Source: a virus. From it: a stretch of 64,000 bases of DNA. The position numbers and the translations under genes were made by a program. Below, piece after piece: positions 3-38,962 of this stretch (the first letter of the stretch is position 1; each line of letters starts with the position of its first letter). Below the pieces are notes generated by a model. It searched no databases. It was not told the origin of the DNA and saw nothing but the letters and a program-made list of their open reading frames with translations. The DNA lies in IMG/VR virus record IMGVR_UViG_3300038722_000002, positions 1-64,000 of that record; one strand, 5' to 3'.

Positions 3-170
3 ATTATATTAGGTGCAGGCTACCCACACGATGAAGGCTATAAGGGTTATACTGGGAACAAGCATTTCAGAGGAATGGCTATGTTGCATCAAGTGAAGAA
101 TGGTAGTTTTAATCCCAGCTTTATTGATTTGGAGTACCTAGAGAAGCGTTATGCCGAAATAGTTTTATAA
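3..170 (+). CDS. C-terminal end of a phage calcineurin-like metallophosphoesterase (partial, starts before the window)
   Basis: Open frame IILGAGYPHDEGYKGYTGNKHFRGMAMLHQVKNGSFNPSFIDLEYLEKRYAEIVL*, resembling the C-terminus of phage phosphoesterases. Confidence 0.65.
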   Translation: MILGAGYPHDEGYKGYTGNKHFRGMAMLHQVKNGSFNPSFIDLEYLEKRYAEIVL

Positions 171-402: not shown

Positions 403-409
403 GGAGGCT

Positions 410-437
410 CCTACTGGCGAGAGCTGGTAGGGTTTTT
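410..437 (+). terminator. Rho-independent terminator
   Basis: CCTACTGGC-GAGA-GCTGGTAGG stem with G-U pairs, followed by GTTTTT. Confidence 0.65.
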
Positions 438-458: not shown

Positions 459-746
459 ATGACAGATTTTGATGTATACGCAGACACATCCCCCGACAAG
501 AAGGGTGTGGTATTTGGCACAGGTTACCTAGTAGAAGGCATGAAGGAGCTACTTACCAAGGCAATCGGTGAAGCCACCTCTACGGAAGATATCCGTGAAA
601 TGCTTAATGACGAGTGTATGCAATTCTGCATCCTTGGCTTCTTCTATGGTAAGGGGTTGGATTCGGATGAGTTCAATCAGATGTTCGCCCCATTTGTCGA
701 GGGTGATATGGAAGATTTAGTACGGTTGATTGCGAAGGAGAAATAA
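459..746 (+). CDS. Hypothetical protein
   Basis: 95-aa ORF with AAGGAG RBS. Confidence 0.75.
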   Translation: MTDFDVYADTSPDKKGVVFGTGYLVEGMKELLTKAIGEATSTEDIREMLNDECMQFCILGFFYGKGLDSDEFNQMFAPFVEGDMEDLVRLIAKEK

Positions 747-771
747 TATCATAACTACACTATTATTAGTA

Positions 772-800
772 TTGCTAACAGCATCGTAGATATGTATACT
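772..800 (+). promoter_or_regulatory. Sigma70-like promoter
   Basis: TTGCTA-17 bp-TATACT upstream of the 828 ORF. Confidence 0.6.
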
Positions 801-827
801 ACCTCCAACTAACAACAGGAGAGAAGA

Positions 828-1745
828 ATGACAGTCAAACCATTTTACATTAGATCAGGAGTGTTGACGGACAATCAAATTAATGGAGTTTTAGATAAAG
901 CTGTAGCTTGTGGGGCTATGGCTTATGAATGTAAAGAAAGGGCTTCTTTACATGGGTACTCTGATGTGTATTCCTCCAACTATTTATACTTTGGGGTAGA
1001 TGATGACAACCATACATACATTACTAACAATATGAACATATACGGAGTAGGAGCAGTAGAGCTGACTATCGATCAGGTGGATGAACATCTAGGAATTACT
1101 ACACCTAAATCAAATACCACAAAAGAGTATGTCCGTGAACGTGTAATCACCACATTAAGGAAGTTCAGTTGCGAGAACTATGTTGGCGACACACTAGCTG
1201 AATATGGACTTGACAGTCTTGACGAAGTGGAGCTTTGCTTTGAATTAGAGGAGGAGTTTGGCACCGAAGTAACAGATGCTACGGCTACGGCTTTCACTAC
1301 AGTTACTCAGGTGGTGGATTACATCCTAAACCATGTGGATTTTAATTTAAAGTTTAATTTAAAGCAGAAGGAGGCACAGGTGGAACCAGAACAAGAGGAC
1401 ACTATTTTTAATAAAGAATATGATGTCGTAATAGAGCAGACGGGGGCCTCTACGCCTTCGCAGTATCGACGAAGTATTACTGTTCCAGAGACAGGTAATC
1501 GTGGTGTGCATCATACTGTGGACATTGAGGTGTTTGATGTTGACCATGCTTACGGGTTAGGGCCAACGGGTCATAATATCCTCAAAGCTCTATGTCGGGA
1601 GGGTAAGAAAGAGGGGAACGTAGAGGATTATGATTATAATAAAATTATGTTTAATTCCTTGCTAATATGGAAGAACAATGGTAAAATCACACCTAAGCGG
1701 TTCTGGGAGCTTGCTGTGGAACTTGGTGTGGCTAAGGAGATATAA
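828..1745 (+). CDS. Three-domain protein: N-terminal domain paralogous to 5019-5423, acyl-carrier-protein domain, DUF3310-like C-terminal domain
   Basis: GLDSLDEVELCFELEEEFGTEVTD...TTVTQVVDYI matches the AcpP phosphopantetheine region (Ser130); C-terminal GHNILKALCREGKKEG..EDYDYNK resembles DUF3310. Confidence 0.8.
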   Translation: MTVKPFYIRSGVLTDNQINGVLDKAVACGAMAYECKERASLHGYSDVYSSNYLYFGVDDDNHTYITNNMNIYGVGAVELTIDQVDEHLGITTPKSNTTKEYVRERVITTLRKFSCENYVGDTLAEYGLDSLDEVELCFELEEEFGTEVTDATATAFTTVTQVVDYILNHVDFNLKFNLKQKEAQVEPEQEDTIFNKEYDVVIEQTGASTPSQYRRSITVPETGNRGVHHTVDIEVFDVDHAYGLGPTGHNILKALCREGKKEGNVEDYDYNKIMFNSLLIWKNNGKITPKRFWELAVELGVAKEI

Positions 1746-1747
1746 TA

Positions 1748-2035
1748 ATGGAAGTTATAATTATACCTGATAAATGGAAAGTGGTTGTTGACAATTACAA
1801 TCACTCTCTGTATAAATGGAATACTGAATACGTTAATAGGAAAAAAGAGGTTGTCCCTGCTAAATGGAAACCTGAATATATATACTTCCCAACACTACCT
1901 CAGTGTGTCCGTTACATCTTGAAACAGGAGATGTTACATGATACATACGATAGTTTAGAAGCTTGTCTATTAGCACAGGAAGAAAAACTACAAGGAATAT
2001 TACAGGAGTTTAAATGTCAACAGATTGGTTCTTGA
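1748..2035 (+). CDS. Hypothetical protein (DUF5405-like)
   Basis: 95-aa ORF coupled to its neighbours; YFPTLPQCVRYI motif. Confidence 0.65.
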   Translation: MEVIIIPDKWKVVVDNYNHSLYKWNTEYVNRKKEVVPAKWKPEYIYFPTLPQCVRYILKQEMLHDTYDSLEACLLAQEEKLQGILQEFKCQQIGS

Positions 2036-2619
2036 AGAAGAGTAAATTTAATCGTTATGCTGAAGCGGTTGTACTGTTCAATGAAATTGCTCGTAAGGAG
2101 CCTCCCACACTCTCACAACAACGAGCGTTAGGGGTAGAGGAGTTCACTGAGACTTACAAGGCATGGGAGGAGAGGGATAAAGTTGAATACTTAGATGGAC
2201 TTATTGATTCATTTGTAGTGTCAAGTTACTTCCATTACATGCAATCGGGTAGTACAGATGTAGAGCAATTCAAAGGCGACCCTACTGTCTATATGGGGGA
2301 GGTGTTGGATAATGTCAAGTACAACTTCGACATGTGGAAACTACTGCACGTCTCTATGTTACTATTACAATCTATTGATGTAGATTATGAGGGAGCTATA
2401 CAAGAAGTGTTGTATAGTAATATGAGTAAGTTTACACTATACCACAGTAGTGACGAAGGTGCCTACGACAGGGAACGTGATTGGATTATGGAGAACACGG
2501 AATATGTAGGAGTTACATGGGAAGTCAATAAAGACTATGTTGTCTTTAAAGATGAGAACAATAAGGTGATGAAGCCTTCTTACTATGTAGCGCCTGTATT
2601 AGAACCATATATTAATTGA
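2014..2619 (+). CDS. MazG/PRA-PH-like all-alpha NTP pyrophosphohydrolase
   Basis: EEFTE...DGLID...EVLYSNMSK...KVMKP motifs. Confidence 0.8.
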   Translation: MSTDWFLKKSKFNRYAEAVVLFNEIARKEPPTLSQQRALGVEEFTETYKAWEERDKVEYLDGLIDSFVVSSYFHYMQSGSTDVEQFKGDPTVYMGEVLDNVKYNFDMWKLLHVSMLLLQSIDVDYEGAIQEVLYSNMSKFTLYHSSDEGAYDRERDWIMENTEYVGVTWEVNKDYVVFKDENNKVMKPSYYVAPVLEPYIN

Positions 2620-2629
2620 GGAGAGAAGA

Positions 2630-3502
2630 ATGACAACACAACCAAGCGCTAAAGTTATTTGTGATAGTGTTAGCCCTAACGGTGACAGACTGATAACGAT
2701 GGAAATAGAACTACACAGGTTCATACTTCCTGAATGGAACACACATAGAAGTATCTCACGTAACTTCCAAAGTAGTCGTGCTATTCCTATTCTACGTCAG
2801 TTACAACAGATTATGGATGACCCTGCTCTCCCTGTGTACTGGGGTAAGAATCAGGCAGGTATGACCGCCAAGGAGGAGCTATCGTTAGAAGCTATTGAAG
2901 AGTGTAAAGATGACATTTTGATGCTTCGCGACATGGCTGTAGCTGTGGCTAAACGTCTTCACAAGCGAGGACTGCACAAGCAAACAGTGAATCGTTATGT
3001 AGAACCGTGGATGTGGACTAAAGGTGTTGTAACAGCCACCTGTGAAGCATGGCGAGGACTGTTAGACTTACGCAATCATCCAGACGCTCAACCAGAGTTC
3101 AAAGCCTTGGCTGTGGAGATCGAACGTAATATCCGTAACTCCAATCCCACACAACTCGAATGGGGTGAGTATCACATGCCTTATGTGAATAAGACAGTCG
3201 ATATGAGTGTGGTGAATCAGGTTAAGTTGTCCACCAGCTGTAACGCACAAGTATCTTATCGTGTGCTAGACGAGACGTTAGATAAGGCTATTAAGATTTA
3301 CGATATGCTCAACTTACCTGTGGCTGCAATATACGGAGAAGATCCTCCACATTTCAGCCCTACAGAGCATGTTGCATTGTGTTATGATGGTTTGTGGGTA
3401 GGTGATAGTGGTAATTTCCACTCAGATGATTGGTGGCAATATCGTAAAGCATTAGAGACAGGGCAAGAAGATTTATTTATTAAACTAGGAGAGGGGAAGT
3501 AA
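2630..3502 (+). CDS. thyX: FAD-dependent thymidylate synthase (phage ThyX-like)
   Basis: RFILPEWNTHRSISRNFQSSRAIP, GLHKQTVNR and LRNHPDAQPEF motifs. Confidence 0.85.
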   Translation: MTTQPSAKVICDSVSPNGDRLITMEIELHRFILPEWNTHRSISRNFQSSRAIPILRQLQQIMDDPALPVYWGKNQAGMTAKEELSLEAIEECKDDILMLRDMAVAVAKRLHKRGLHKQTVNRYVEPWMWTKGVVTATCEAWRGLLDLRNHPDAQPEFKALAVEIERNIRNSNPTQLEWGEYHMPYVNKTVDMSVVNQVKLSTSCNAQVSYRVLDETLDKAIKIYDMLNLPVAAIYGEDPPHFSPTEHVALCYDGLWVGDSGNFHSDDWWQYRKALETGQEDLFIKLGEGK

Positions 3503-3798
3503 TGAAAACTATTACGAAGAAATTCACAGTAGAGGCATCTATCGGTATGGAGATTAGCCTAGAGGAGCTTATCGAACGAACGGGCGGGGTATGTTGTAAT
3601 GCAGGTCATAGTCATTTTGTTAATGAGCTTACAGAAGTACTTGTTAAAGGTAAGCCTGTCAACTTATCTGACATCAAGGTACGTCTGTTTGCAGAGGAGG
3701 ATGAGGCTACTGACATCGTAAGCGATGCTGTACGTATGCAAGAGTTCACTATTGCTACACCTAAGAAGGTAGCTCCGAAGAAGAAAGGAAACAAGTAA
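3502..3798 (+). CDS. Hypothetical protein
   Basis: 98-aa ORF with TAATG coupling at both ends. Confidence 0.75.
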   Translation: MKTITKKFTVEASIGMEISLEELIERTGGVCCNAGHSHFVNELTEVLVKGKPVNLSDIKVRLFAEEDEATDIVSDAVRMQEFTIATPKKVAPKKKGNK

Positions 3799-4151
3799 TG
3801 TACGTTTTACTACACGTAGTATATGATGATAACGGCGCTCGGTATGAGGAGTTTGTAGGTGTGTTGCAGGAGGACGATCCGTATGGTGCGCCAATTAAGA
3901 GACTTATGACAGAAACCAACGACATTTATTGTACTGACCGTAAGACGAGTAAGGCTCTCGATGGTAGTGAGACAGATCATTACTTGTTACTCCCCATACA
4001 GGAGGATGGAACTGTAACACCAGCCCCACACCCGTTACAGAACATACACGACCTATTAAGCGAAGTTGATAGACACGAAATAGTAATTTCACCTGAAGTT
4101 ACACGTGAATGGATTAATATTTTAAAAGAGGAAATTAATAAAGATGACTAA
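3798..4151 (+). CDS. Hypothetical protein
   Basis: 117-aa ORF within the operon. Confidence 0.7.
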   Translation: MYVLLHVVYDDNGARYEEFVGVLQEDDPYGAPIKRLMTETNDIYCTDRKTSKALDGSETDHYLLLPIQEDGTVTPAPHPLQNIHDLLSEVDRHEIVISPEVTREWINILKEEINKDD

Positions 4152-4401
4152 AGAACTAACTAAACAGAAAGAAGGTGAGTTGATTAACGAGGCAATTAAC
4201 CTCATCGTTGCTCGTGAGTCAGCTAAAGAGTCCCTAGCTGGTAATTTAACTATCAGTAAAGACACCTATGGTGACGCTGCGGCTAACATCAATAAAGATG
4301 CAGAAGCGATCTACAAGGCTACTCAAGACCGTGAGAAGTATGAGAAGAATAAAGAAATCAAACAGCGTGAGTTTGATGTCGTAGAAGAAGCACTGAGCTA
4401 A
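4144..4401 (+). CDS. Small helical protein, possibly a T4 DsbA/GapR-like DNA-binding protein
   Basis: 85-aa charged all-helical ORF with GAGG RBS; family call is weak. Confidence 0.6.
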   Translation: MTKELTKQKEGELINEAINLIVARESAKESLAGNLTISKDTYGDAAANINKDAEAIYKATQDREKYEKNKEIKQREFDVVEEALS

Positions 4402-4407
4402 TCGAAT

Positions 4408-4439
4408 GGGACACATGACTTCGGTTGTGTGTCCTTTTT
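4408..4439 (+). terminator. Rho-independent terminator
   Basis: GGGACACATGAC-TTCG-GTTGTGTGTCCT followed by TTTT. Confidence 0.85.
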
Positions 4440-4479: not shown

Positions 4480-4965
4480 ATGGAATACGAAGAGAACTAC
4501 GACGAACTAACCACAGATGATTTACAAAACAACCTGTTTCTTGCTTTGCTTGATGCGGGATATACAGGAACACAAGCCGAGATGTTGGCTGAGAAGCGAT
4601 ACAGTGGTGCATACAGCACACAAGAAGCAGAGGCTAGCATTTACCCTATCCGTAAGCTAATCGCTCTCCATCGGCTACCTGAGCAGTTTCATGGGCTATC
4701 TGACAAACAGAAGGATAAGTTTCTATGGGAACTAGGATTTGACACTAAACTATATAAGTACCAAGTACGTTTAGATTGGATGCGCGACTCAGAGGATAGC
4801 CCTAAGCAACAATATGGTGAGTTCATCGTCTGTACTGAGAGGGTTGATAAAGGCTGGACTGTAGGTAATCCACATGCTAGTATAGAAGCACGTTATTTCT
4901 ATGACCAAGAGGAAATGCGGGACATAATCTCATGCCGAGGGAAGGCGGTGAGAAAAAAGGTATGA
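4480..4965 (+). CDS. Hypothetical protein
   Basis: 161-aa ORF with GGAG RBS. Confidence 0.75.
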   Translation: MEYEENYDELTTDDLQNNLFLALLDAGYTGTQAEMLAEKRYSGAYSTQEAEASIYPIRKLIALHRLPEQFHGLSDKQKDKFLWELGFDTKLYKYQVRLDWMRDSEDSPKQQYGEFIVCTERVDKGWTVGNPHASIEARYFYDQEEMRDIISCRGKAVRKKV

Positions 4966-4989: not shown

Positions 4990-5018
4990 ACACATACTTT
5001 ATTGACTAGGAGAGAATA

Positions 5019-5423
5019 ATGACAGTTAAGCCATTTTATATTAAATCAGAAGGGTTGACGGACGACCGAATTAATGAAGTTTTAGATAAAGCTGTAGACT
5101 GTGGAGCTAGGGTTTATGAAAGTAAAGAAGGGGCTTCTCGGTATACGTACCCGCATACGCTCGTCGAGAGATACTTATACTTTGGAGTGGATGATGAGAA
5201 CGATACATATGTTTCTGACGAGATTGACATGTACGGAGTAGGAGCAGTAGAGTTGACTGTAGATCAAGTGGATGAACATTTACTAGGGAACACCCATGCA
5301 GTGCCCGTTGTAGACGACATTGATGAAACTCACGAGGCGTTGTGTGTTGCGATAGACCGTATCCTAACGACAGATATTACACCTAAGATCAAGACCATTT
5401 TAATCAAGAAGTTACTACAGTAG
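5019..5423 (+). CDS. Hypothetical protein, paralog of the N-terminal domain of 828-1745
   Basis: Shares MTVKPFYI.S..LTD..IN.VLDKAV.CGA...YLYFGVDD.N.TY...YGVGAVELT.DQVDEHL. Confidence 0.8.
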   Translation: MTVKPFYIKSEGLTDDRINEVLDKAVDCGARVYESKEGASRYTYPHTLVERYLYFGVDDENDTYVSDEIDMYGVGAVELTVDQVDEHLLGNTHAVPVVDDIDETHEALCVAIDRILTTDITPKIKTILIKKLLQ

Positions 5424-33496: not shown

Positions 33497-33979
33497 TTAC
33501 AGGTAAGAGGCTTCAGCAGCTACGGCATCAGCGGTAGTGGTGATACGTTGTTCTTCAAGCTGAGTCAAGAACAGAGCTTGTGCAGGTGCAGCGGCGCTAC
33601 CCCAAACCATACCCTCATTTTTAATGATTGCATCACCACGATATAGAACAGTCATGGTTACGTCACCAGCAGAAAGATCAGTATCGGCTTTATTGAAACC
33701 TAGACCATTGGCTGTACCAACTACGATAGCGATAGCAGCATCACCTTTCAGTGGTGAAGTACCAGTAGCCATAGCAGCACCGATATCTTGTGCAACGTAA
33801 ACCTCGAAACGAGAGTTCGCATTAGACCAGATAACAGGAACACCGATTGCTGGGATAGTTGCACTACCACCTACTGTTACAGATGCGTAGTTGAAATTAG
33901 TTTTAGTGTCTTCTTCAAAAGACATCACGCCAGCAATTAGGTCTGACAAGTAAGCGCGTTCAGTAGCGTTAACAGGCAT
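33497..33979 (-). CDS. Head decoration protein
   Basis: LSDL N-terminal motif and VLYRG; lies between scaffold and capsid genes. Confidence 0.75.
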   Translation of the reverse strand: MPVNATERAYLSDLIAGVMSFEEDTKTNFNYASVTVGGSATIPAIGVPVIWSNANSRFEVYVAQDIGAAMATGTSPLKGDAAIAIVVGTANGLGFNKADTDLSAGDVTMTVLYRGDAIIKNEGMVWGSAAAPAQALFLTQLEEQRITTTADAVAAEASYL

Positions 33980-33994
33980 TATGTATAACTCCGA

Positions 33995-34696
33995 TTATTT
34001 AGATTGTGGGGCGAAGGCAGCAATGCGATCACTTAGAGATTTCTCAATCTCCACTTCTGCTTCTACTGATTCACCAGCTTCTTCAGATAATTCTTTAACT
34101 AGGGGATTCTCAGGAGATACACTCTTCTGTGCTTTCTCTAGTTCAGCAGCAGCAACTTCACCAGCTTCAGCTAGGGCTACTTCGCCTTGTGCGATCAAAG
34201 CATCAAAGGCTTTTAGTAGAACGTCTTGTCCTTCTTCAACAGAAGCTAGAACAACACTAAGCTCAGTCTCAAGTTCTTTCTCAAAAGAATACGCTGAAAG
34301 AGTTGCAGCAGCGTTAGCGGTTTTTAGTTGCTTCTCAAGGGCAACAATACGAGCCTCTTGTGCAGCCATGATTTCATCAGACATGTTTTTGTCATTTCCT
34401 TTAGTAATAGTAGGGGTTTCTACCTCAGCAGCCTCGTCAGTATTAACATCTGAGGTAGAGGATTTAGTACATTCTTCCATAGATTTATCTACTTCAGAAA
34501 TATCGTAACCAACGCTCTCTAACAGGGAACGCTGTTTTAATGAAAGAGTTTTACCTTCCTCTAACGACTTCAGGAGGATAGGGTTATTCATAAGCGAACA
34601 TGCCCCACCTGCACTAACGTCTGTCAAAGCTAAATGCGCTTTGTCGAAGTCAAAACTAATCTTTGTTAGCTTTCTTTTCACTGTCTTACTCATCAA
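33995..34696 (-). CDS. Capsid scaffolding protein
   Basis: Acidic Ala/Glu-rich coiled coil; N-terminal KRKLTKISF...HLAL. Confidence 0.75.
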   Translation of the reverse strand: MMSKTVKRKLTKISFDFDKAHLALTDVSAGGACSLMNNPILLKSLEEGKTLSLKQRSLLESVGYDISEVDKSMEECTKSSTSDVNTDEAAEVETPTITKGNDKNMSDEIMAAQEARIVALEKQLKTANAAATLSAYSFEKELETELSVVLASVEEGQDVLLKAFDALIAQGEVALAEAGEVAAAELEKAQKSVSPENPLVKELSEEAGESVEAEVEIEKSLSDRIAAFAPQSK

Positions 34697-35393
34697 CTTC
34701 TTCCCAAGTAGCTACAGCACCAATTGATACACCCATAAATTCTCCTTGCTTACGGAGATCCCATGCGTCTTTATTAACGTATTGAACTTCTACCAAAGGC
34801 ATACCTTTCTTGACTTCAGTTTCTCCTATCATGCAATCACACTCGTTAACCCAAGCGCGAACAGGAGTAAAATCTTCCGTCATTACCTTATGGAAATAAT
34901 TACCTGACATGGTGCCTTCTTCACAAGCCTTGTTGAAGCTCTTAACCATGTCATAACACACTTCAGGAGACGCATACGTATCTCCAACCCCATCTACATC
35001 ACCTATTGCAATGTATAGAGGTTCAATGGCAATCATTTTCTCATCTTCAAACTGCTTAACGATAGGCATCAAAGCCTCGCCTTTCTCACTGTCACCGAAC
35101 TTAGATACGATTGATTCCAGAGCTTTAACTAATGTAGAAGTAGTTTGATACTCAGTGGTCGATACTACAACCTCAGCTTCATCACCTAGCTCTACATCTA
35201 CACCATTCATTGTGTAAGACGTTCGGAACATTTCATAATGCCCGTCTCCTACACTACCATCCCAGTAGACATAACTTTCATCGTAATCTGTTAGGTAGGG
35301 GTATCCGTGAGAGTTACTAAACTTCTTAGAGATTGCACGATTGAGTAATCGGTGCTTATCCTTCTCAGTAGCCTTGTTCAAAATTGCTGTCAT
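34686..35393 (-). CDS. Prohead protease (XkdF / S78-like)
   Basis: PLY....VD..GD, FH, W...K.GEFMGVSIG. Confidence 0.8.
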   Translation of the reverse strand: MTAILNKATEKDKHRLLNRAISKKFSNSHGYPYLTDYDESYVYWDGSVGDGHYEMFRTSYTMNGVDVELGDEAEVVVSTTEYQTTSTLVKALESIVSKFGDSEKGEALMPIVKQFEDEKMIAIEPLYIAIGDVDGVGDTYASPEVCYDMVKSFNKACEEGTMSGNYFHKVMTEDFTPVRAWVNECDCMIGETEVKKGMPLVEVQYVNKDAWDLRKQGEFMGVSIGAVATWEEVDE

Positions 35394-37339: not shown

Positions 37340-38962
37340 TTAGGACTCCTTGTATTTAGGTGTTTCTTGTAAGGTGGCTGTGTAACTGTCTATGACGTTA
37401 GCCGCTCTTGATTCGTTTTGTTGTTGATTTCTTGTTACTATGTTTACTGTCCTACCTGAACACGCTGCGGCAAACGCCATACTCATAGCATCCACCCAAT
37501 CATCTTTACGTGCGCTATTACTTTTCTTTTCAGGGTCAAAGGCTTCAAGTTCAGAATACAGGGCGTTCAGGGTAGGTTTATCAAACGTACTTTCAACTAT
37601 GTGTACTAAACCTAATGAACACGCCTGACAGAAGGGTTGGAATGCAACCAACTTCTTATTAGGTGTATTATGTGCAGACTTATCTTCCTTAACCTTCAGT
37701 CCTTCCTCTTGGAAACGACCTAACGTATAGTAATGATCTGTCGCAGCACCACCTGTATCTTTTGTAAATACCCAAGTGGTGTCGTCGCCGTCATGGTGGG
37801 CTTGTCGGATAAGCATGGAGTCTCTAGCCCCTGCTAATTTCCGCATCCTCCCATGAACCCTTTCCTTAGCATCTAATTTAAGCTGCTGAACGTCTGTATA
37901 GTCGTCTAGGTAGTCACCTATTAACCAATACTCTCCATTCCTATCCTTAGCTATCTTAGGGGATGTGGCTGTGAAGTCTGGTTGGGCGTAAACCTCACTA
38001 GGTTCACTATACCCCTTATCCGTTCCTCTGTACCACTTGAGATCAGGAGGTATATCTGCCAAGGAGCTAACCTTCTCTCCTGCTTCTCCTCTTAACCAAT
38101 GTCGTTGCCATAACGACTGACTACGTGGACGAGAGTACCAGTTACCCCACAATTGAGTATCACGTTCATGGTCTGGTAGGTTATTCAACTCCGATAGGTA
38201 CACAGGGTTCGCTTTCAAACCTAATGGGTTATCGAATATATTAAAGAAGAAGTATGTGAACTTCTTCGGACGTATGTAAATCGTTTCATCCGAGTTAGGT
38301 ATATCAACCCACAAACACTCAGGGTAGTTCTCTTGAAACCACTCTTCCGATGGGCCGAAGATGAACTCACCTTCTTTTACTATGAACCACCTAATGTCCC
38401 CTCGTTTGTCGGGGTCTGGTGAACCATCCTCTTTCAAGTAGTATTCTACTAGAGGTAGGCACCAGCTATCAGGGTTAGGGTTGAGTGTCCCGACACAAAA
38501 GGAGTTCATATCTGCCTCTGAACGCAGACATGTCATCAAGAAGGTTACTTGGCTCTTAGAGAACTGATCGATTTCATCGAATCCTATAAGTGAGTAGCCT
38601 TTACCTCGGTGTGAACTCTTGTCGTCCTCGTAGAACATGTGACGATAGAATTGCTTTGCTCCCGAAGGCCACACCCAAGCCTTATCTGAAATCTTAGGTT
38701 GTGCGCCGAAGAGGGGATATTGGTTTTCACCTTTCTCCCACAGGCCGTTAGCACCCATAATTTCATCGTATTGTCTTCGGAAGAATATCCCCCTGAAACT
38801 CTTATCCTCTGCAAAGCAGCAGGGGATCATACTAAGTATTTCTGACTTGCCACCGAATCGTGCGCCACCCCATAACATGAAGTCCACATCACCGATCATA
38901 CTGAAAGCTAACTCTTGATTACCTTCTTGGGGGCGTACATCTTGCCACGTCTCATATCCCAT
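37340..38962 (-). CDS. terL: Terminase large subunit
   Basis: Walker A GGARFGGKS, Walker B LIGFDEIDQ, TLNP coupling motif, KDDWVDA nuclease motif. Confidence 0.92.
   Translation of the reverse strand: MGYETWQDVRPQEGNQELAFSMIGDVDFMLWGGARFGGKSEILSMIPCCFAEDKSFRGIFFRRQYDEIMGANGLWEKGENQYPLFGAQPKISDKAWVWPSGAKQFYRHMFYEDDKSSHRGKGYSLIGFDEIDQFSKSQVTFLMTCLRSEADMNSFCVGTLNPNPDSWCLPLVEYYLKEDGSPDPDKRGDIRWFIVKEGEFIFGPSEEWFQENYPECLWVDIPNSDETIYIRPKKFTYFFFNIFDNPLGLKANPVYLSELNNLPDHERDTQLWGNWYSRPRSQSLWQRHWLRGEAGEKVSSLADIPPDLKWYRGTDKGYSEPSEVYAQPDFTATSPKIAKDRNGEYWLIGDYLDDYTDVQQLKLDAKERVHGRMRKLAGARDSMLIRQAHHDGDDTTWVFTKDTGGAATDHYYTLGRFQEEGLKVKEDKSAHNTPNKKLVAFQPFCQACSLGLVHIVESTFDKPTLNALYSELEAFDPEKKSNSARKDDWVDAMSMAFAAACSGRTVNIVTRNQQQNESRAANVIDSYTATLQETPKYKES

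What the first reader, a model, noticed from the sequence alone, without database searches (positions are those of the whole stretch)
828..1745. Phage protein carrying an acyl-carrier-protein domain between a duplicated N-terminal domain and a DUF3310-like domain
Seen: residues ~97-168 follow bacterial AcpP closely (GLDSLDEVELCFELEEEFGTEVTD...TTVTQVVDYI), with the phosphopantetheine Ser intact (Ser130, codon 1215-1217). No other fatty-acid or PKS gene is in the window. Established: host AcpP binds MukB and SpoT and serves many acyltransferases. Inference: an ACP mimic or decoy that titrates ACP-dependent host or defence proteins, or a targeting tag for the C-terminal domain.
Basis: partly seen in the sequence, partly recalled or inferred. 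Interest (0 to 1): 0.75.

Follow-up and report, generated by a model that had tools for sequence, protein, structure and literature searches.

The report
Phage acyl-carrier domain fused to DUF3310-like module
An uncultured marine phage makes one protein that joins a complete bacterial-type acyl carrier domain to a distant relative of the phage T7 nucleotide-kinase domain, a rare combination that suggests a testable link between the host's acyl-carrier network and phage nucleotide supply.

Summary
ORF 828-1745 (305 aa) has three modules.

1. Residues 1-88 are a phage N-terminal cassette. A second copy heads ORF 5019-5423 (65% protein identity; 83-86% DNA identity, starting at the ribosome-binding site).
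2. Residues 97-169 are a full AcpP-type carrier domain. PF00550 scores 34.7 bits against a cut-off of 20.8, and Ser130 is at codon 1215-1217.
3. Residues 205-305 are a divergent DUF3310-superfamily module. It falls below Pfam's threshold, but relatives link it to the DUF3310 domain of T7 gp1.7 through shared PHROG families and an ESM Atlas look-up.

The gene lies in an operon with MazG-like and ThyX-like genes. Related phages keep the C-module gene at this position but with other N-terminal modules. The roughly 83.6-kb genome has no phosphopantetheinyl transferase, ketosynthase, acyltransferase or adenylating enzyme.

The carrier+C-module fusion was seen in only one other protein (P0003, 37% identical) and in none of 50,697 phage records.

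My reading (confidence 0.4): the C-module is the working core in nucleotide handling. The carrier domain, probably modified by the host AcpS, acts as a docking or sensing module. The decoy reading is not excluded.

This scan has noted carrier-domain fusions before on other DNA (rIIB fusions, a serine-less copy), but not this one.

The parts
817..827 (+). Shine-Dalgarno AGGAG (817-821) and spacer; also the first bases of the duplicated N-cassette
   Evidence: sequence read; repeat D1 starts at 817
828..1745 (+). whole ORF, 305 aa plus stop (P0001)
   Evidence: identical sequence held by two sources (JGI/IMG, Logan)
828..1091 (+). N-module, residues 1-88: promiscuous phage N-terminal cassette of unknown function
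   Evidence: 65% identical to ORF 5019-5423. DNA repeats at 83-86%. The module is found at the N-terminus of 48 of the 150 best HMMER hits (query included), followed by many different tails. No Pfam or PHROG family.
1116..1334 (+). acyl carrier (PP-binding) domain, residues 97-169
   Evidence: PF00550 34.7 bits against 20.8. Alignments to whole ACP chains. TIGR00517 49.5 bits, below its equivalog cut-off of 70.45. phrog_5934 'acyl carrier protein' 2.7e-11.
1215..1217 (+). codon of Ser130, the predicted phosphopantetheine attachment serine (D-S-L motif)
   Evidence: aligned to the DSL serine of ACP chains; invariant column in alignment A3
1335..1439 (+). linker of about 35 residues (170-204), charged, no family
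   Evidence: lies between the domain matches; P0003 has a linker of similar length
1440..1742 (+). C-module, residues 205-305: divergent DUF3310-superfamily module (phrog_4521 lineage)
   Evidence: 26 of the 150 best hits (query included) share it. 24 of 26 members hit phrog_4521 and 5 of 26 hit phrog_236 'nucleotide kinase'. 7 of 26 hit PF11753 at E<=1, best 0.0026. Own-genome PF11753 hit of 13 bits at 1572-1631. ESM Atlas: 29 of 30 feature hits fall in DUF3310 clusters, TM 0.59.
5019..5423 (+). paralogue: the same N-module with a different 46-residue tail (P0002)
1748..2035 (+). next gene in the operon, 95 aa, starts 2 bases after the stop
   Evidence: weak phrog_154 match 2.6e-6
2014..2619 (+). 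MazG-like nucleotide pyrophosphohydrolase
   Evidence: phrog_671 2.9e-21; weak homologue at the same relative place in L005
2630..3502 (+). ThyX-like thymidylate synthase
   Evidence: phrog_85 4.6e-53; PF02511 36.4 bits; 39.7% identical to the L005 gene in the same order
409..432 (+). terminator-like hairpin before the operon
   Evidence: 10-pair stem plus T run. The number of such sites in the region is no more than shuffles give.
4408..4435 (+). terminator-like hairpin after the operon
   Evidence: 12-pair stem plus T run

Best explanation
The gene encodes a three-module protein of the replication and nucleotide-metabolism region of a marine tailed phage.

Shown:
- The middle module is a complete AcpP-type acyl carrier domain with its serine.
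- The C-module belongs to a phage-only family that is a distant branch of the DUF3310 superfamily, the domain found in T7 gp1.7 nucleotide kinase and lactococcal SaV.
- This C-module is the part kept at this place in related phages, next to MazG-like and ThyX-like genes. What stands in front of it is exchanged: an SH3-like module, other small modules, nothing, or here the N-cassette plus the carrier domain.
- The phage encodes no transferase to load the carrier and no acyl-handling enzyme.

Inferred:
- The C-module does the protein's work in nucleotide handling, either as a gp1.7-like dNMP kinase or as a nucleotide-binding takeover function.
- The carrier domain is an accessory module that the host AcpS converts to the holo form. 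It then docks the protein onto proteins that normally bind host AcpP, or reports the host's acyl-ACP state to the C-module. It does not carry intermediates of a phage pathway.
- The likely history is a carrier+C-module gene of the P0003 type, to which a copy of the N-cassette, ribosome-binding site included, was added by duplication within this genome.
For: Domain calls:
- Carrier domain.
- C-module to DUF3310. T7 gp1.7 residues 122-184 are PF11753 at 4.5e-23. C-module relatives and gp1.7 hit the same PHROG families at matching profile positions: phrog_4943, 236, 4897, 25460, 5839, 11450, 11324 and 2781. 7 of 26 members hit PF11753 at E<=1. In the ESM Atlas, 29 of 30 feature hits are DUF3310 clusters.

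Operon and synteny:
- Genes run 459-4401 with 2-base gaps or overlaps, between two terminator-like hairpins.
- L005 keeps the order C-module gene, MazG-like, ThyX-like (39.7% identity), w4480-like. L004 keeps the C-module gene and the w4480-like gene.
- Upstream lie primase/helicase, DNA polymerase, exonuclease and metallophosphoesterase genes.

Module swapping:
- The 26 C-module proteins among the 150 best hits have unrelated N-termini or none.
- The 10 C-module ORFs in fetched loci have no carrier domain. An ACP HMM gives nothing better than E 0.74, against 5e-28 for the control.

The fusion is kept under divergence: P0003 (214 aa) has carrier+C-module at 37% identity, with the D-S-L motif and acidic helix II intact.

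No phage-encoded loading or acyl enzymes. The record is close to a whole permuted genome. A Logan contig of 83,647 bases holds the stretch at 33,513-35,013. One metallophosphoesterase gene is split over the record's ends.

N-cassette duplication.
Against: - No test of function, fold or binding was possible.
- P0001 itself does not reach Pfam's DUF3310 threshold and does not hit phrog_4521 at E<=0.01. It is the lowest-scoring full-length member of its own family profile.
- A profile-profile comparison with a narrow gp1.7 alignment gave only P about 0.01 and probability 4%.
- Kinase activity is known for T7 gp1.7 only. Its N-terminal 120 residues have no counterpart here, and other DUF3310 proteins (SaV, Hammy gp54) are known only as toxic early proteins (passages read).
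- 0 of 5 phage records with an unfused C-module encode any carrier protein, so nothing shows that the C-module generally needs one.
- Only two fused proteins are known. Whether their carrier domains share one origin is unresolved: they are not each other's nearest (ranks 83 of 83 and 72 of 76), but one clade is not rejected (p-AU 0.384).
Confidence: 0.4

Rival explanations
1. Decoy. The carrier domain is made in quantity early in infection. It soaks up host AcpS/CoA or sits on ACP-client proteins (acyltransferases, SpoT, MukB and the like) and so shuts down host lipid synthesis or signalling. The C-module adds a second, independent takeover activity.
For: Helix II, the surface that ACP partners read, is nearly the AcpP sequence, and 24 of 47 residues are identical to E. 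coli-type AcpP. The phage has no acyl enzymes of its own. DUF3310 proteins SaV and Hammy gp54 are toxic early proteins (passages). From recall, not from a call: overproduced apo-ACP is toxic in E. coli, and AcpP binds SpoT and MukB.
Against: A decoy has no need to be fused to anything. Free-standing phage ACP genes exist and would serve as well. The fusion to the C-module is kept in a second, 37%-identical protein, which suggests the two parts work together. Expression level is unknown.
Confidence: 0.2
2. Passive module. The carrier domain is a small, acidic, well-folding spacer, solubility or oligomerisation unit picked up by chance. It has no ACP-specific role.
For: N-terminal partners of the C-module are highly variable and some members have none. 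Only 2 of 26 representative C-module proteins carry the domain. The carrier part has the same G+C content as its neighbours, 0.42-0.44.
Against: Both fused proteins keep the D-S-L serine and the acidic helix II despite 37% overall identity. Each carrier domain stays closer to ordinary ACPs than to the other, as expected under continued ACP-type constraint.
Confidence: 0.15
3. Intramolecular partner ('Rosetta stone'). The holo- or acyl-carrier domain docks on the C-module and switches it on or off. Unfused C-module (and perhaps other DUF3310) proteins would use the host's AcpP in the same way.
For: The two modules are joined by a linker of about 35-40 residues in both fused proteins. 0 of 5 phage records with an unfused C-module have their own ACP, so any partner would be host AcpP. 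The best PDB matches of the carrier domain are mitochondrial ACPs that serve as bound subunits of larger complexes.
Against: There is no direct evidence. No LYR-type or other known ACP-binding family appears among the Pfam hits of 26 members at E<=1.
Confidence: 0.1
4. True carrier. The pantetheine arm is loaded by host enzymes (FabD, AasS-type ligase or others). The acyl group then anchors the protein at the membrane or is passed to a phage or host target.
For: The carrier domain is complete with its serine. Notes from this scan report the same domain fused to membrane-associated rIIB in other phages (unchecked AI notes).
Against: No acyl-handling, adenylating or transferase gene was found in the genome. 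The neighbours are nucleotide-metabolism genes.
Confidence: 0.1

Closest known systems
Free-standing phage acyl carrier proteins (PHROG 5934; e.g. Vibrio phage helene 12B3 AGG58013.1, Vibrio phage R16F ORF117, Burkholderia phage BCSR5)
   Same: Same PP-binding domain with the serine (phrog_5934 2.7e-11). They are found in phages of marine gammaproteobacteria, and their function in phages is likewise unknown.
   Different: They are single-domain proteins of about 70-100 aa. None of the phage records matched covers 80% or more of P0003 (0 of 82) or of residues 96-305 of P0001 (0 of 20). Here the domain is internal, between two other modules.
T7 gp1.7 nucleotide kinase (NP_041967.1; PF11753 DUF3310 at residues 122-184)
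   Same: The C-module's relatives and gp1.7 hit the same PHROG profiles at matching positions. The motifs are colinear in the hhalign output: S-x-Y, D-I-E, N-I-L-K, R-x-G-K-K, D-x-x-K. Both are early genes beside DNA-metabolism genes.
   Different: The match is below Pfam's threshold. There is a 14-residue insertion between the first two motifs. gp1.7's N-terminal 120 residues have no counterpart here. gp1.7 has no carrier domain. Kinase activity is untested here.
SaV of lactococcal phages and mycobacteriophage Hammy gp54 (DUF3310 proteins)
   Same: Small early phage proteins carrying DUF3310 and toxic on overexpression; SaV triggers AbiV (passages read). Like the C-module family, their biochemical function is unknown.
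   Different: These are Pfam-level DUF3310 members from Gram-positive or actinobacterial phages. No carrier domain is reported for them. Direct similarity to P0001 was not tested.
Bacterial AcpP and mitochondrial ACPM
   Same: Alignment across helices I-IV, D-S-L serine, acidic helix II, 51% identity to E. coli-type AcpP over 47 residues.
   Different: Below the NCBIfam equivalog cut-offs (49.5 against 70.45 bits). The helix I-II loop is shorter by 4-6 residues. Helix III is Thr/Ala-rich instead of acidic. The domain is embedded in a phage protein with no fatty-acid synthase partners encoded.
P0003, a 214-aa metagenomic protein (ENA; longest contig 13,444 bases)
   Same: Carrier domain + linker + C-module, 37% identical over residues 126-304, serine kept; phrog_5934 8.4e-15 and phrog_4521 6.7e-5.
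   Different: It lacks the N-cassette. Its genomic context could not be read (look-up of encoding contigs closed; no relative in viral contigs).
rIIB-ACP fusions and a serine-less ACP look-alike fusion noted earlier in this scan
   Same: A bacterial-type carrier domain joined in frame to a phage protein of unrelated function (AI notes, not checked here).
   Different: The partner protein is different (rIIB, not DUF3310-like). Here the serine is present.

Membership tests
PP-binding / acyl carrier domain (PF00550) | HMM score at or above the curated gathering score | tested here: met
   34.7 bits against 20.8; 37.5 bits in the six-frame search
PP-binding / acyl carrier domain (PF00550) | Serine of the D-S-L motif at the start of helix II | tested here: met
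   Ser130 in G-L-D-S-L-D; aligned to the ACP serine; invariant column in A3
PP-binding / acyl carrier domain (PF00550) | Four-helix bundle fold | not testable with these tools
Sequence alignments span helices I-IV. The Atlas's own whole-protein model is poor (pLDDT 0.58, pTM 0.28).
PP-binding / acyl carrier domain (PF00550) | 4'-phosphopantetheine on the serine | not testable with these tools
   Needs mass spectrometry. No PPTase gene in the phage, so a host enzyme would be required.
Housekeeping AcpP (NCBIfam TIGR00517, NF002149 equivalogs) | Score at or above the equivalog cut-off | tested here: not met
   49.5 against 70.45 bits and 44.4 against 106 bits. It is a domain-level relative, not an AcpP orthologue.
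Type II fatty-acid or polyketide system | Partner enzymes (ketosynthase, acyltransferase, adenylating enzyme, PPTase) encoded alongside | tested here: not met
   0 matches for PF00109, PF00698, PF00501 and PF01648 in the 83,539-base record, with positive controls in 10-14 of 14 genomes
DUF3310 (PF11753) | HMM score at or above the gathering score of 24 bits | tested here: not met
   No hit at E<=1 for P0001. 13 bits at 1572-1631. Best relative 18.2 bits.
DUF3310 superfamily (remote) | Homology shown through intermediate sequences or profiles, with matching positions | tested here: met
   7 of 26 relatives hit PF11753 at E<=1. Relatives and T7 gp1.7 share 8 PHROG families at matching profile positions. 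ESM Atlas: 29 of 30 feature hits, TM 0.59. Against this, hhalign versus a narrow gp1.7 alignment gave only P 0.0097.
T7 gp1.7-type nucleotide kinase | Full-length similarity to gp1.7, including residues 1-120 | tested here: not met
   Only the DUF3310 part aligns.
T7 gp1.7-type nucleotide kinase | dNMP kinase activity | not testable with these tools
   Biochemical assay needed. The primary papers were not held.
PHROG 4521 (unknown function) | Profile match | tested here: inconclusive
   P0001 has no hit at E<=0.01, but 24 of 26 aligned relatives do, best 5.3e-12. These relatives match P0001's C-module at 1e-13 to 4e-26.

The most novel reading that the evidence does not exclude
The fusion is a Rosetta stone. 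Members of the DUF3310 superfamily (T7 gp1.7, SaV and this marine family) would act together with the host's acyl carrier protein, so that phage nucleotide supply or host takeover is gated by the cell's acyl-ACP state. In this phage the partner has been built into the protein. This would give a first handle on the mechanism of a very widespread phage domain and would fit the other carrier-domain fusions seen in phages.
Probability: 0.12. Interest if true: 0.8.

Novelty: new variant of a known kind. Interest (0 to 1): 0.55.

Why it matters
Phage-encoded acyl carrier proteins are annotated often and explained never. DUF3310 is one of the commonest phage domains, yet it has one biochemical datum (the T7 gp1.7 kinase) and several toxicity phenotypes. 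A natural covalent link between the two, kept in two diverged proteins and placed in a nucleotide-metabolism operon, gives concrete experiments: phosphopantetheinylation of Ser130, a kinase assay with and without the carrier domain, and a partner search with an S130A control. These could explain both. If the carrier domain proves to be only a hook or decoy for host ACP clients, it adds a new way for phages to tap the host's most connected small protein.

Tried and rejected

Searches with little yield:
- The search for homologous proteins gave almost nothing. It returned the query only, 3 proteins with alignment A1, and 3 with A2 'longer'. The word index misses this family, so these blanks say nothing about rarity.
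- The genome-contig scan gave one 21-residue match that I regard as spurious.
- PDB sequence searches for the C-module profile and for gp1.7 found nothing significant.
- N-module: no Pfam, PHROG or convincing Atlas family.
- Context of a free-standing phage ACP (helene 12B3): all neighbours are hypothetical proteins.

Analyses that did not settle a question:
- hhalign of the C-module against a narrow T7-like gp1.7 alignment gave P 0.0097, probability 4%. This is too weak to stand alone.
- My by-eye reading that P0040 is N-module plus DUF3310 was not borne out by Pfam. It gets only E 0.021 from the C-module HMM, so it remains a lead only.
- The tree of carrier domains was unresolved (1 starred branch of 48). 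One origin of the two fused carrier domains is neither shown nor rejected (p-AU 0.384).
- LYR-motif idea: no Complex1_LYR or other ACP-binding family among the Pfam hits of 26 members.
- A recent host capture of the carrier part is not supported by composition.

Expression: no RNA holder listed.

Papers: Tran et al. 2008 and 2012 on gp1.7 were not held. What I say of gp1.7 biochemistry comes from a citing passage and recall. No supplementary files were requested.
Full report
THE OBSERVATION

ORF 828-1745 on the + strand is open and encodes 305 residues (P0001). It is preceded by AGGAG at 817-821.

Pfam PP-binding (PF00550) matches residues 119-166 at 34.7 bits against a gathering score of 20.8. 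The six-frame search of the record gives 37.5 bits at 1182-1325, and this is the only PF00550 match in the record. phmmer against all PDB chains aligns residues 97-166/169 with whole acyl carrier proteins, helix I included. The best hits are the Yarrowia complex-I ACPM2 (5.5e-9) and a plant SDAP1. Bacterial AcpP chains follow at about 1e-7 and align without gaps over residues 123-169. By my count of the printed alignment, 24 of 47 residues are identical to the E. coli-type sequence.

The NCBIfam AcpP equivalogs match but stay under their cut-offs (49.5 against 70.45 bits). This is therefore an AcpP-type domain, not a housekeeping orthologue. The loop between helices I and II is 4-6 residues shorter than in most ACPs, which is within the range seen in alignment A3.

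THE N-MODULE

Residues 1-88 are 65% identical to the start of ORF 5019-5423. At the DNA level, two direct repeats (817-947/5008-5138 at 86%; 981-1091/5172-5282 at 83%) start at the ribosome-binding site and stop at codon 88. A cassette has therefore been copied within this genome.

The module has no Pfam or PHROG family and no convincing Atlas family. It is nevertheless common. 48 of the 150 best hits of an exhaustive HMMER search, the query included, carry it at the N-terminus, followed after a D-E-H-L-G-like boundary by many unrelated tails. One protein has three copies in tandem, and one continues into MutS domains III-V.

THE C-MODULE

Residues 205-305 are shared by 26 of the 150 best hits, the query included. 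P0001 alone gives no Pfam DUF3310 hit at E<=1 and only 13 bits, against a cut-off of 24, at 1572-1631 in the six-frame search. It fails formal membership.

Remote kinship is supported in several ways:
- 7 of the 26 family members hit PF11753 at E<=1, best 0.0026.
- 24 of 26 hit phrog_4521, 5 of 26 hit phrog_236 'nucleotide kinase' and 4 of 26 hit phrog_4897 'kinase'.
- T7 gp1.7, annotated as nucleotide kinase, carries PF11753 at residues 122-184 (4.5e-23).
- gp1.7 hits the same PHROG profiles as the C-module relatives, at matching profile positions: 4943, 236, 4897, 25460, 5839, 11450, 11324 and 2781.
- The ESM Atlas places residues 196-305 among DUF3310 clusters (29 of 30 feature hits, top score 0.93; structural TM 0.59 on its own low-confidence model).

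Against this, a profile-profile comparison with a narrow alignment of T7-like gp1.7 proteins was weak (P 0.0097, probability 4%). Its alignment is colinear over four motifs, with a 14-residue insertion in the C-module family. No solved structure is related by sequence to the C-module or to gp1.7.

I therefore call it a divergent DUF3310-superfamily module, not a Pfam DUF3310 member.

IS THE FUSION REAL, AND HOW COMMON IS IT?

- The same protein sequence is held by two sources.
- In a second sample of the same study, a 638-base contig covers 1104-1741 (carrier domain, linker and C-module) with no difference, and a 622-base contig covers 600-1133 across the N-module/carrier join. A run from another study holds 1175-1370 with one difference.
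- Among the 150 best representatives, only P0003 (214 aa, ENA metagenome) also joins a carrier domain to the C-module. It is 37% identical over residues 126-304 and keeps the D-S-L serine and acidic helix II.
- None of the 10 C-module ORFs in the loci fetched from viral and metagenome contigs has a carrier domain. An ACP HMM gives at best E 0.74, against 5e-28 for the window ORF as control.
- No record of the 50,697-record phage collection covers 80% or more of P0003 or of residues 96-305 of P0001: 0 of 82 and 0 of 20 matched records respectively. The 4 records matched by full-length P0001 match the N-module only.
- The C-module family was not found in bacterial genomes.
- No paper in the searched library holds both 'acyl carrier protein' and 'DUF3310'.

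Caveat: only the best 150 of 324 HMMER hits were visible, and the word-index searches were insensitive for this family. The fusion is rare in what I could see. It is not proven unique.

CONTEXT

TerL (37340-38962, minus strand) is nearest to Pseudoalteromonas phage H101 (50.7% identity), and the runs that hold the DNA are marine metagenomes.

The record is close to a whole, permuted genome:
- A Logan contig of 83,647 bases holds the stretch at 33,513-35,013, whereas the 83,539-base record holds it at 600-2100.
- One metallophosphoesterase gene is split over the record's two ends (phrog_221 positions 107-277 at the end and 308-355 at window 3-170).
- CheckV's estimate of 54% complete is thus probably too low.

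In this genome there is no phosphopantetheinyl transferase, ketosynthase, malonyl/acyl transferase or adenylating enzyme.

The gene lies after primase/helicase, DNA polymerase, exonuclease, HNH and metallophosphoesterase genes. It sits in a tight run of genes from 459 to 4401, bounded by terminator-like hairpins at 409-432 and 4408-4435. The count of such hairpins is not above shuffles. The following genes are a 95-aa ORF, a MazG-like pyrophosphohydrolase (phrog_671, 2.9e-21) and a ThyX-like thymidylate synthase (phrog_85, 4.6e-53).

Two contigs of similar size (82,457 and 83,483 bases) carry a C-module gene with an SH3-like N-terminus. It is followed by MazG-like and ThyX genes, a homologue of window ORF 4480-4965, and ribonucleotide reductase. 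tblastn confirms the shared order for L005: C-module, MazG-like (weak), ThyX-like at 39.7%, and w4480-like.

The C-module is thus the conserved, positionally orthologous part, and the N-terminal modules are swapped. None of 5 records with an unfused C-module has any PF00550 match. Only one of these records is rated complete and one is rated 89%.

HOW IT MOST LIKELY WORKS

Shown:
- a complete carrier domain with its serine;
- a DUF3310-superfamily C-module conserved at this operon position;
- exchangeable N-terminal modules;
- no phage-encoded loading or acyl enzymes;
- the fusion kept in a second, diverged protein.

Inferred (confidence 0.4):
- The C-module carries the protein's activity in nucleotide handling, either as a gp1.7-like kinase or as a nucleotide-binding takeover function.
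- The carrier domain is an accessory module that the host AcpS converts to holo form. It serves to dock on host ACP-client proteins or to sense the acyl-ACP state.
- The likely history is a P0003-type carrier+C-module gene, to which the N-cassette was added by intragenomic duplication.

Rivals:
- a decoy that titrates AcpS or ACP clients (0.2);
- a passive spacer or solubility module (0.15);
- an intramolecular switch that would imply unfused relatives use host AcpP (0.1);
- a true acyl carrier loaded by host enzymes (0.1).

The two fused carrier domains are not each other's nearest relatives in the set I held (ranks 83 of 83 and 72 of 76). With 88 columns, however, a single origin is not rejected (p-AU 0.384). 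Convergent fusion, which would be strong evidence for a functional link, remains open.

WHAT IS KNOWN

- Free-standing phage ACP genes are annotated in many phages, including Vibrio phages, without a demonstrated role.
- DUF3310 covers T7 gp1.7, lactococcal SaV (an early, toxic protein that triggers AbiV) and cytotoxic mycobacteriophage proteins (passages read). The primary gp1.7 papers were not held.
- The following come from recall, not from a call: AcpP binds SpoT and MukB, and excess apo-ACP is toxic in E. coli.
- Earlier AI notes of this scan report carrier domains fused to rIIB in several phage lineages and a serine-less copy in a giant phage. I did not check them. They suggest that carrier-domain fusion is a recurring phage habit, but none involves this partner. 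No look-alike of P0001 was on file.

VERDICT

The architecture is a new variant built from two known kinds of phage module. Its function is open but directly testable. Interest 0.55.

Noticed in passing
window 817-1091 and 5008-5282: Direct repeats of 83-86% identity, spaced 4191 bases apart. They copy the N-cassette with its ribosome-binding site and bracket the whole nucleotide-metabolism operon. They could mediate deletion or exchange of that block.
   Followed up: partly
window 2630-3502: The ThyX-like gene matches PHROG 85 strongly (4.6e-53), but Pfam Thy1 matches only partly (36.4 bits, profile 59-190). By eye it reads T-H-R-S where the shorter ThyX in locus L004 reads R-H-R-S. L005 has the same long type (39.7% identity). 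A changed specificity was not examined.
   Followed up: no
record ends: window 3-170 and G000:C1 82702-83539 (L030 10703-11539): One metallophosphoesterase gene is split over the two ends of the record, and a Logan contig 108 bases longer holds the finding in its middle. The genome is therefore permuted and nearly whole, and CheckV's 54% completeness looks too low.
   Followed up: partly
proteins P0026, P0064 and others: The N-module is a widespread phage N-terminal cassette with many different tails. P0026 has three tandem copies. P0064 (618 aa) continues into MutS domains III, IV and V (MutS_V 1.8e-78).
   Followed up: partly
L030 4568-6256 and 6246-6842 (G000:C1 76567-78841): The DNA polymerase ORF (562 aa) matches only positions 50-507 of a 663-position PHROG profile and overlaps the start of a 198-aa ORF. 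This may be a split or frameshifted polymerase.
   Followed up: no
proteins P0116, P0114, P0087: Other metagenomic proteins join a single carrier domain, serine included, to unrelated modules of unknown function. Carrier-domain fusions to small unknown proteins are thus not confined to this case.
   Followed up: no
protein P0040 (166 aa): N-module followed by a tail that looks DUF3310-like by eye. It gets no Pfam hit at E<=0.1 and only E 0.021 from the C-module HMM. It is a weak lead that N-module plus DUF3310-type tails recur without a carrier domain.
   Followed up: partly
window 1175-1370: A 196-base contig from a marine metagenome of a different study and year (run X5) covers the carrier-domain core with one difference (A1287G). 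This phage, or this module, therefore recurs beyond the source study.
   Followed up: no
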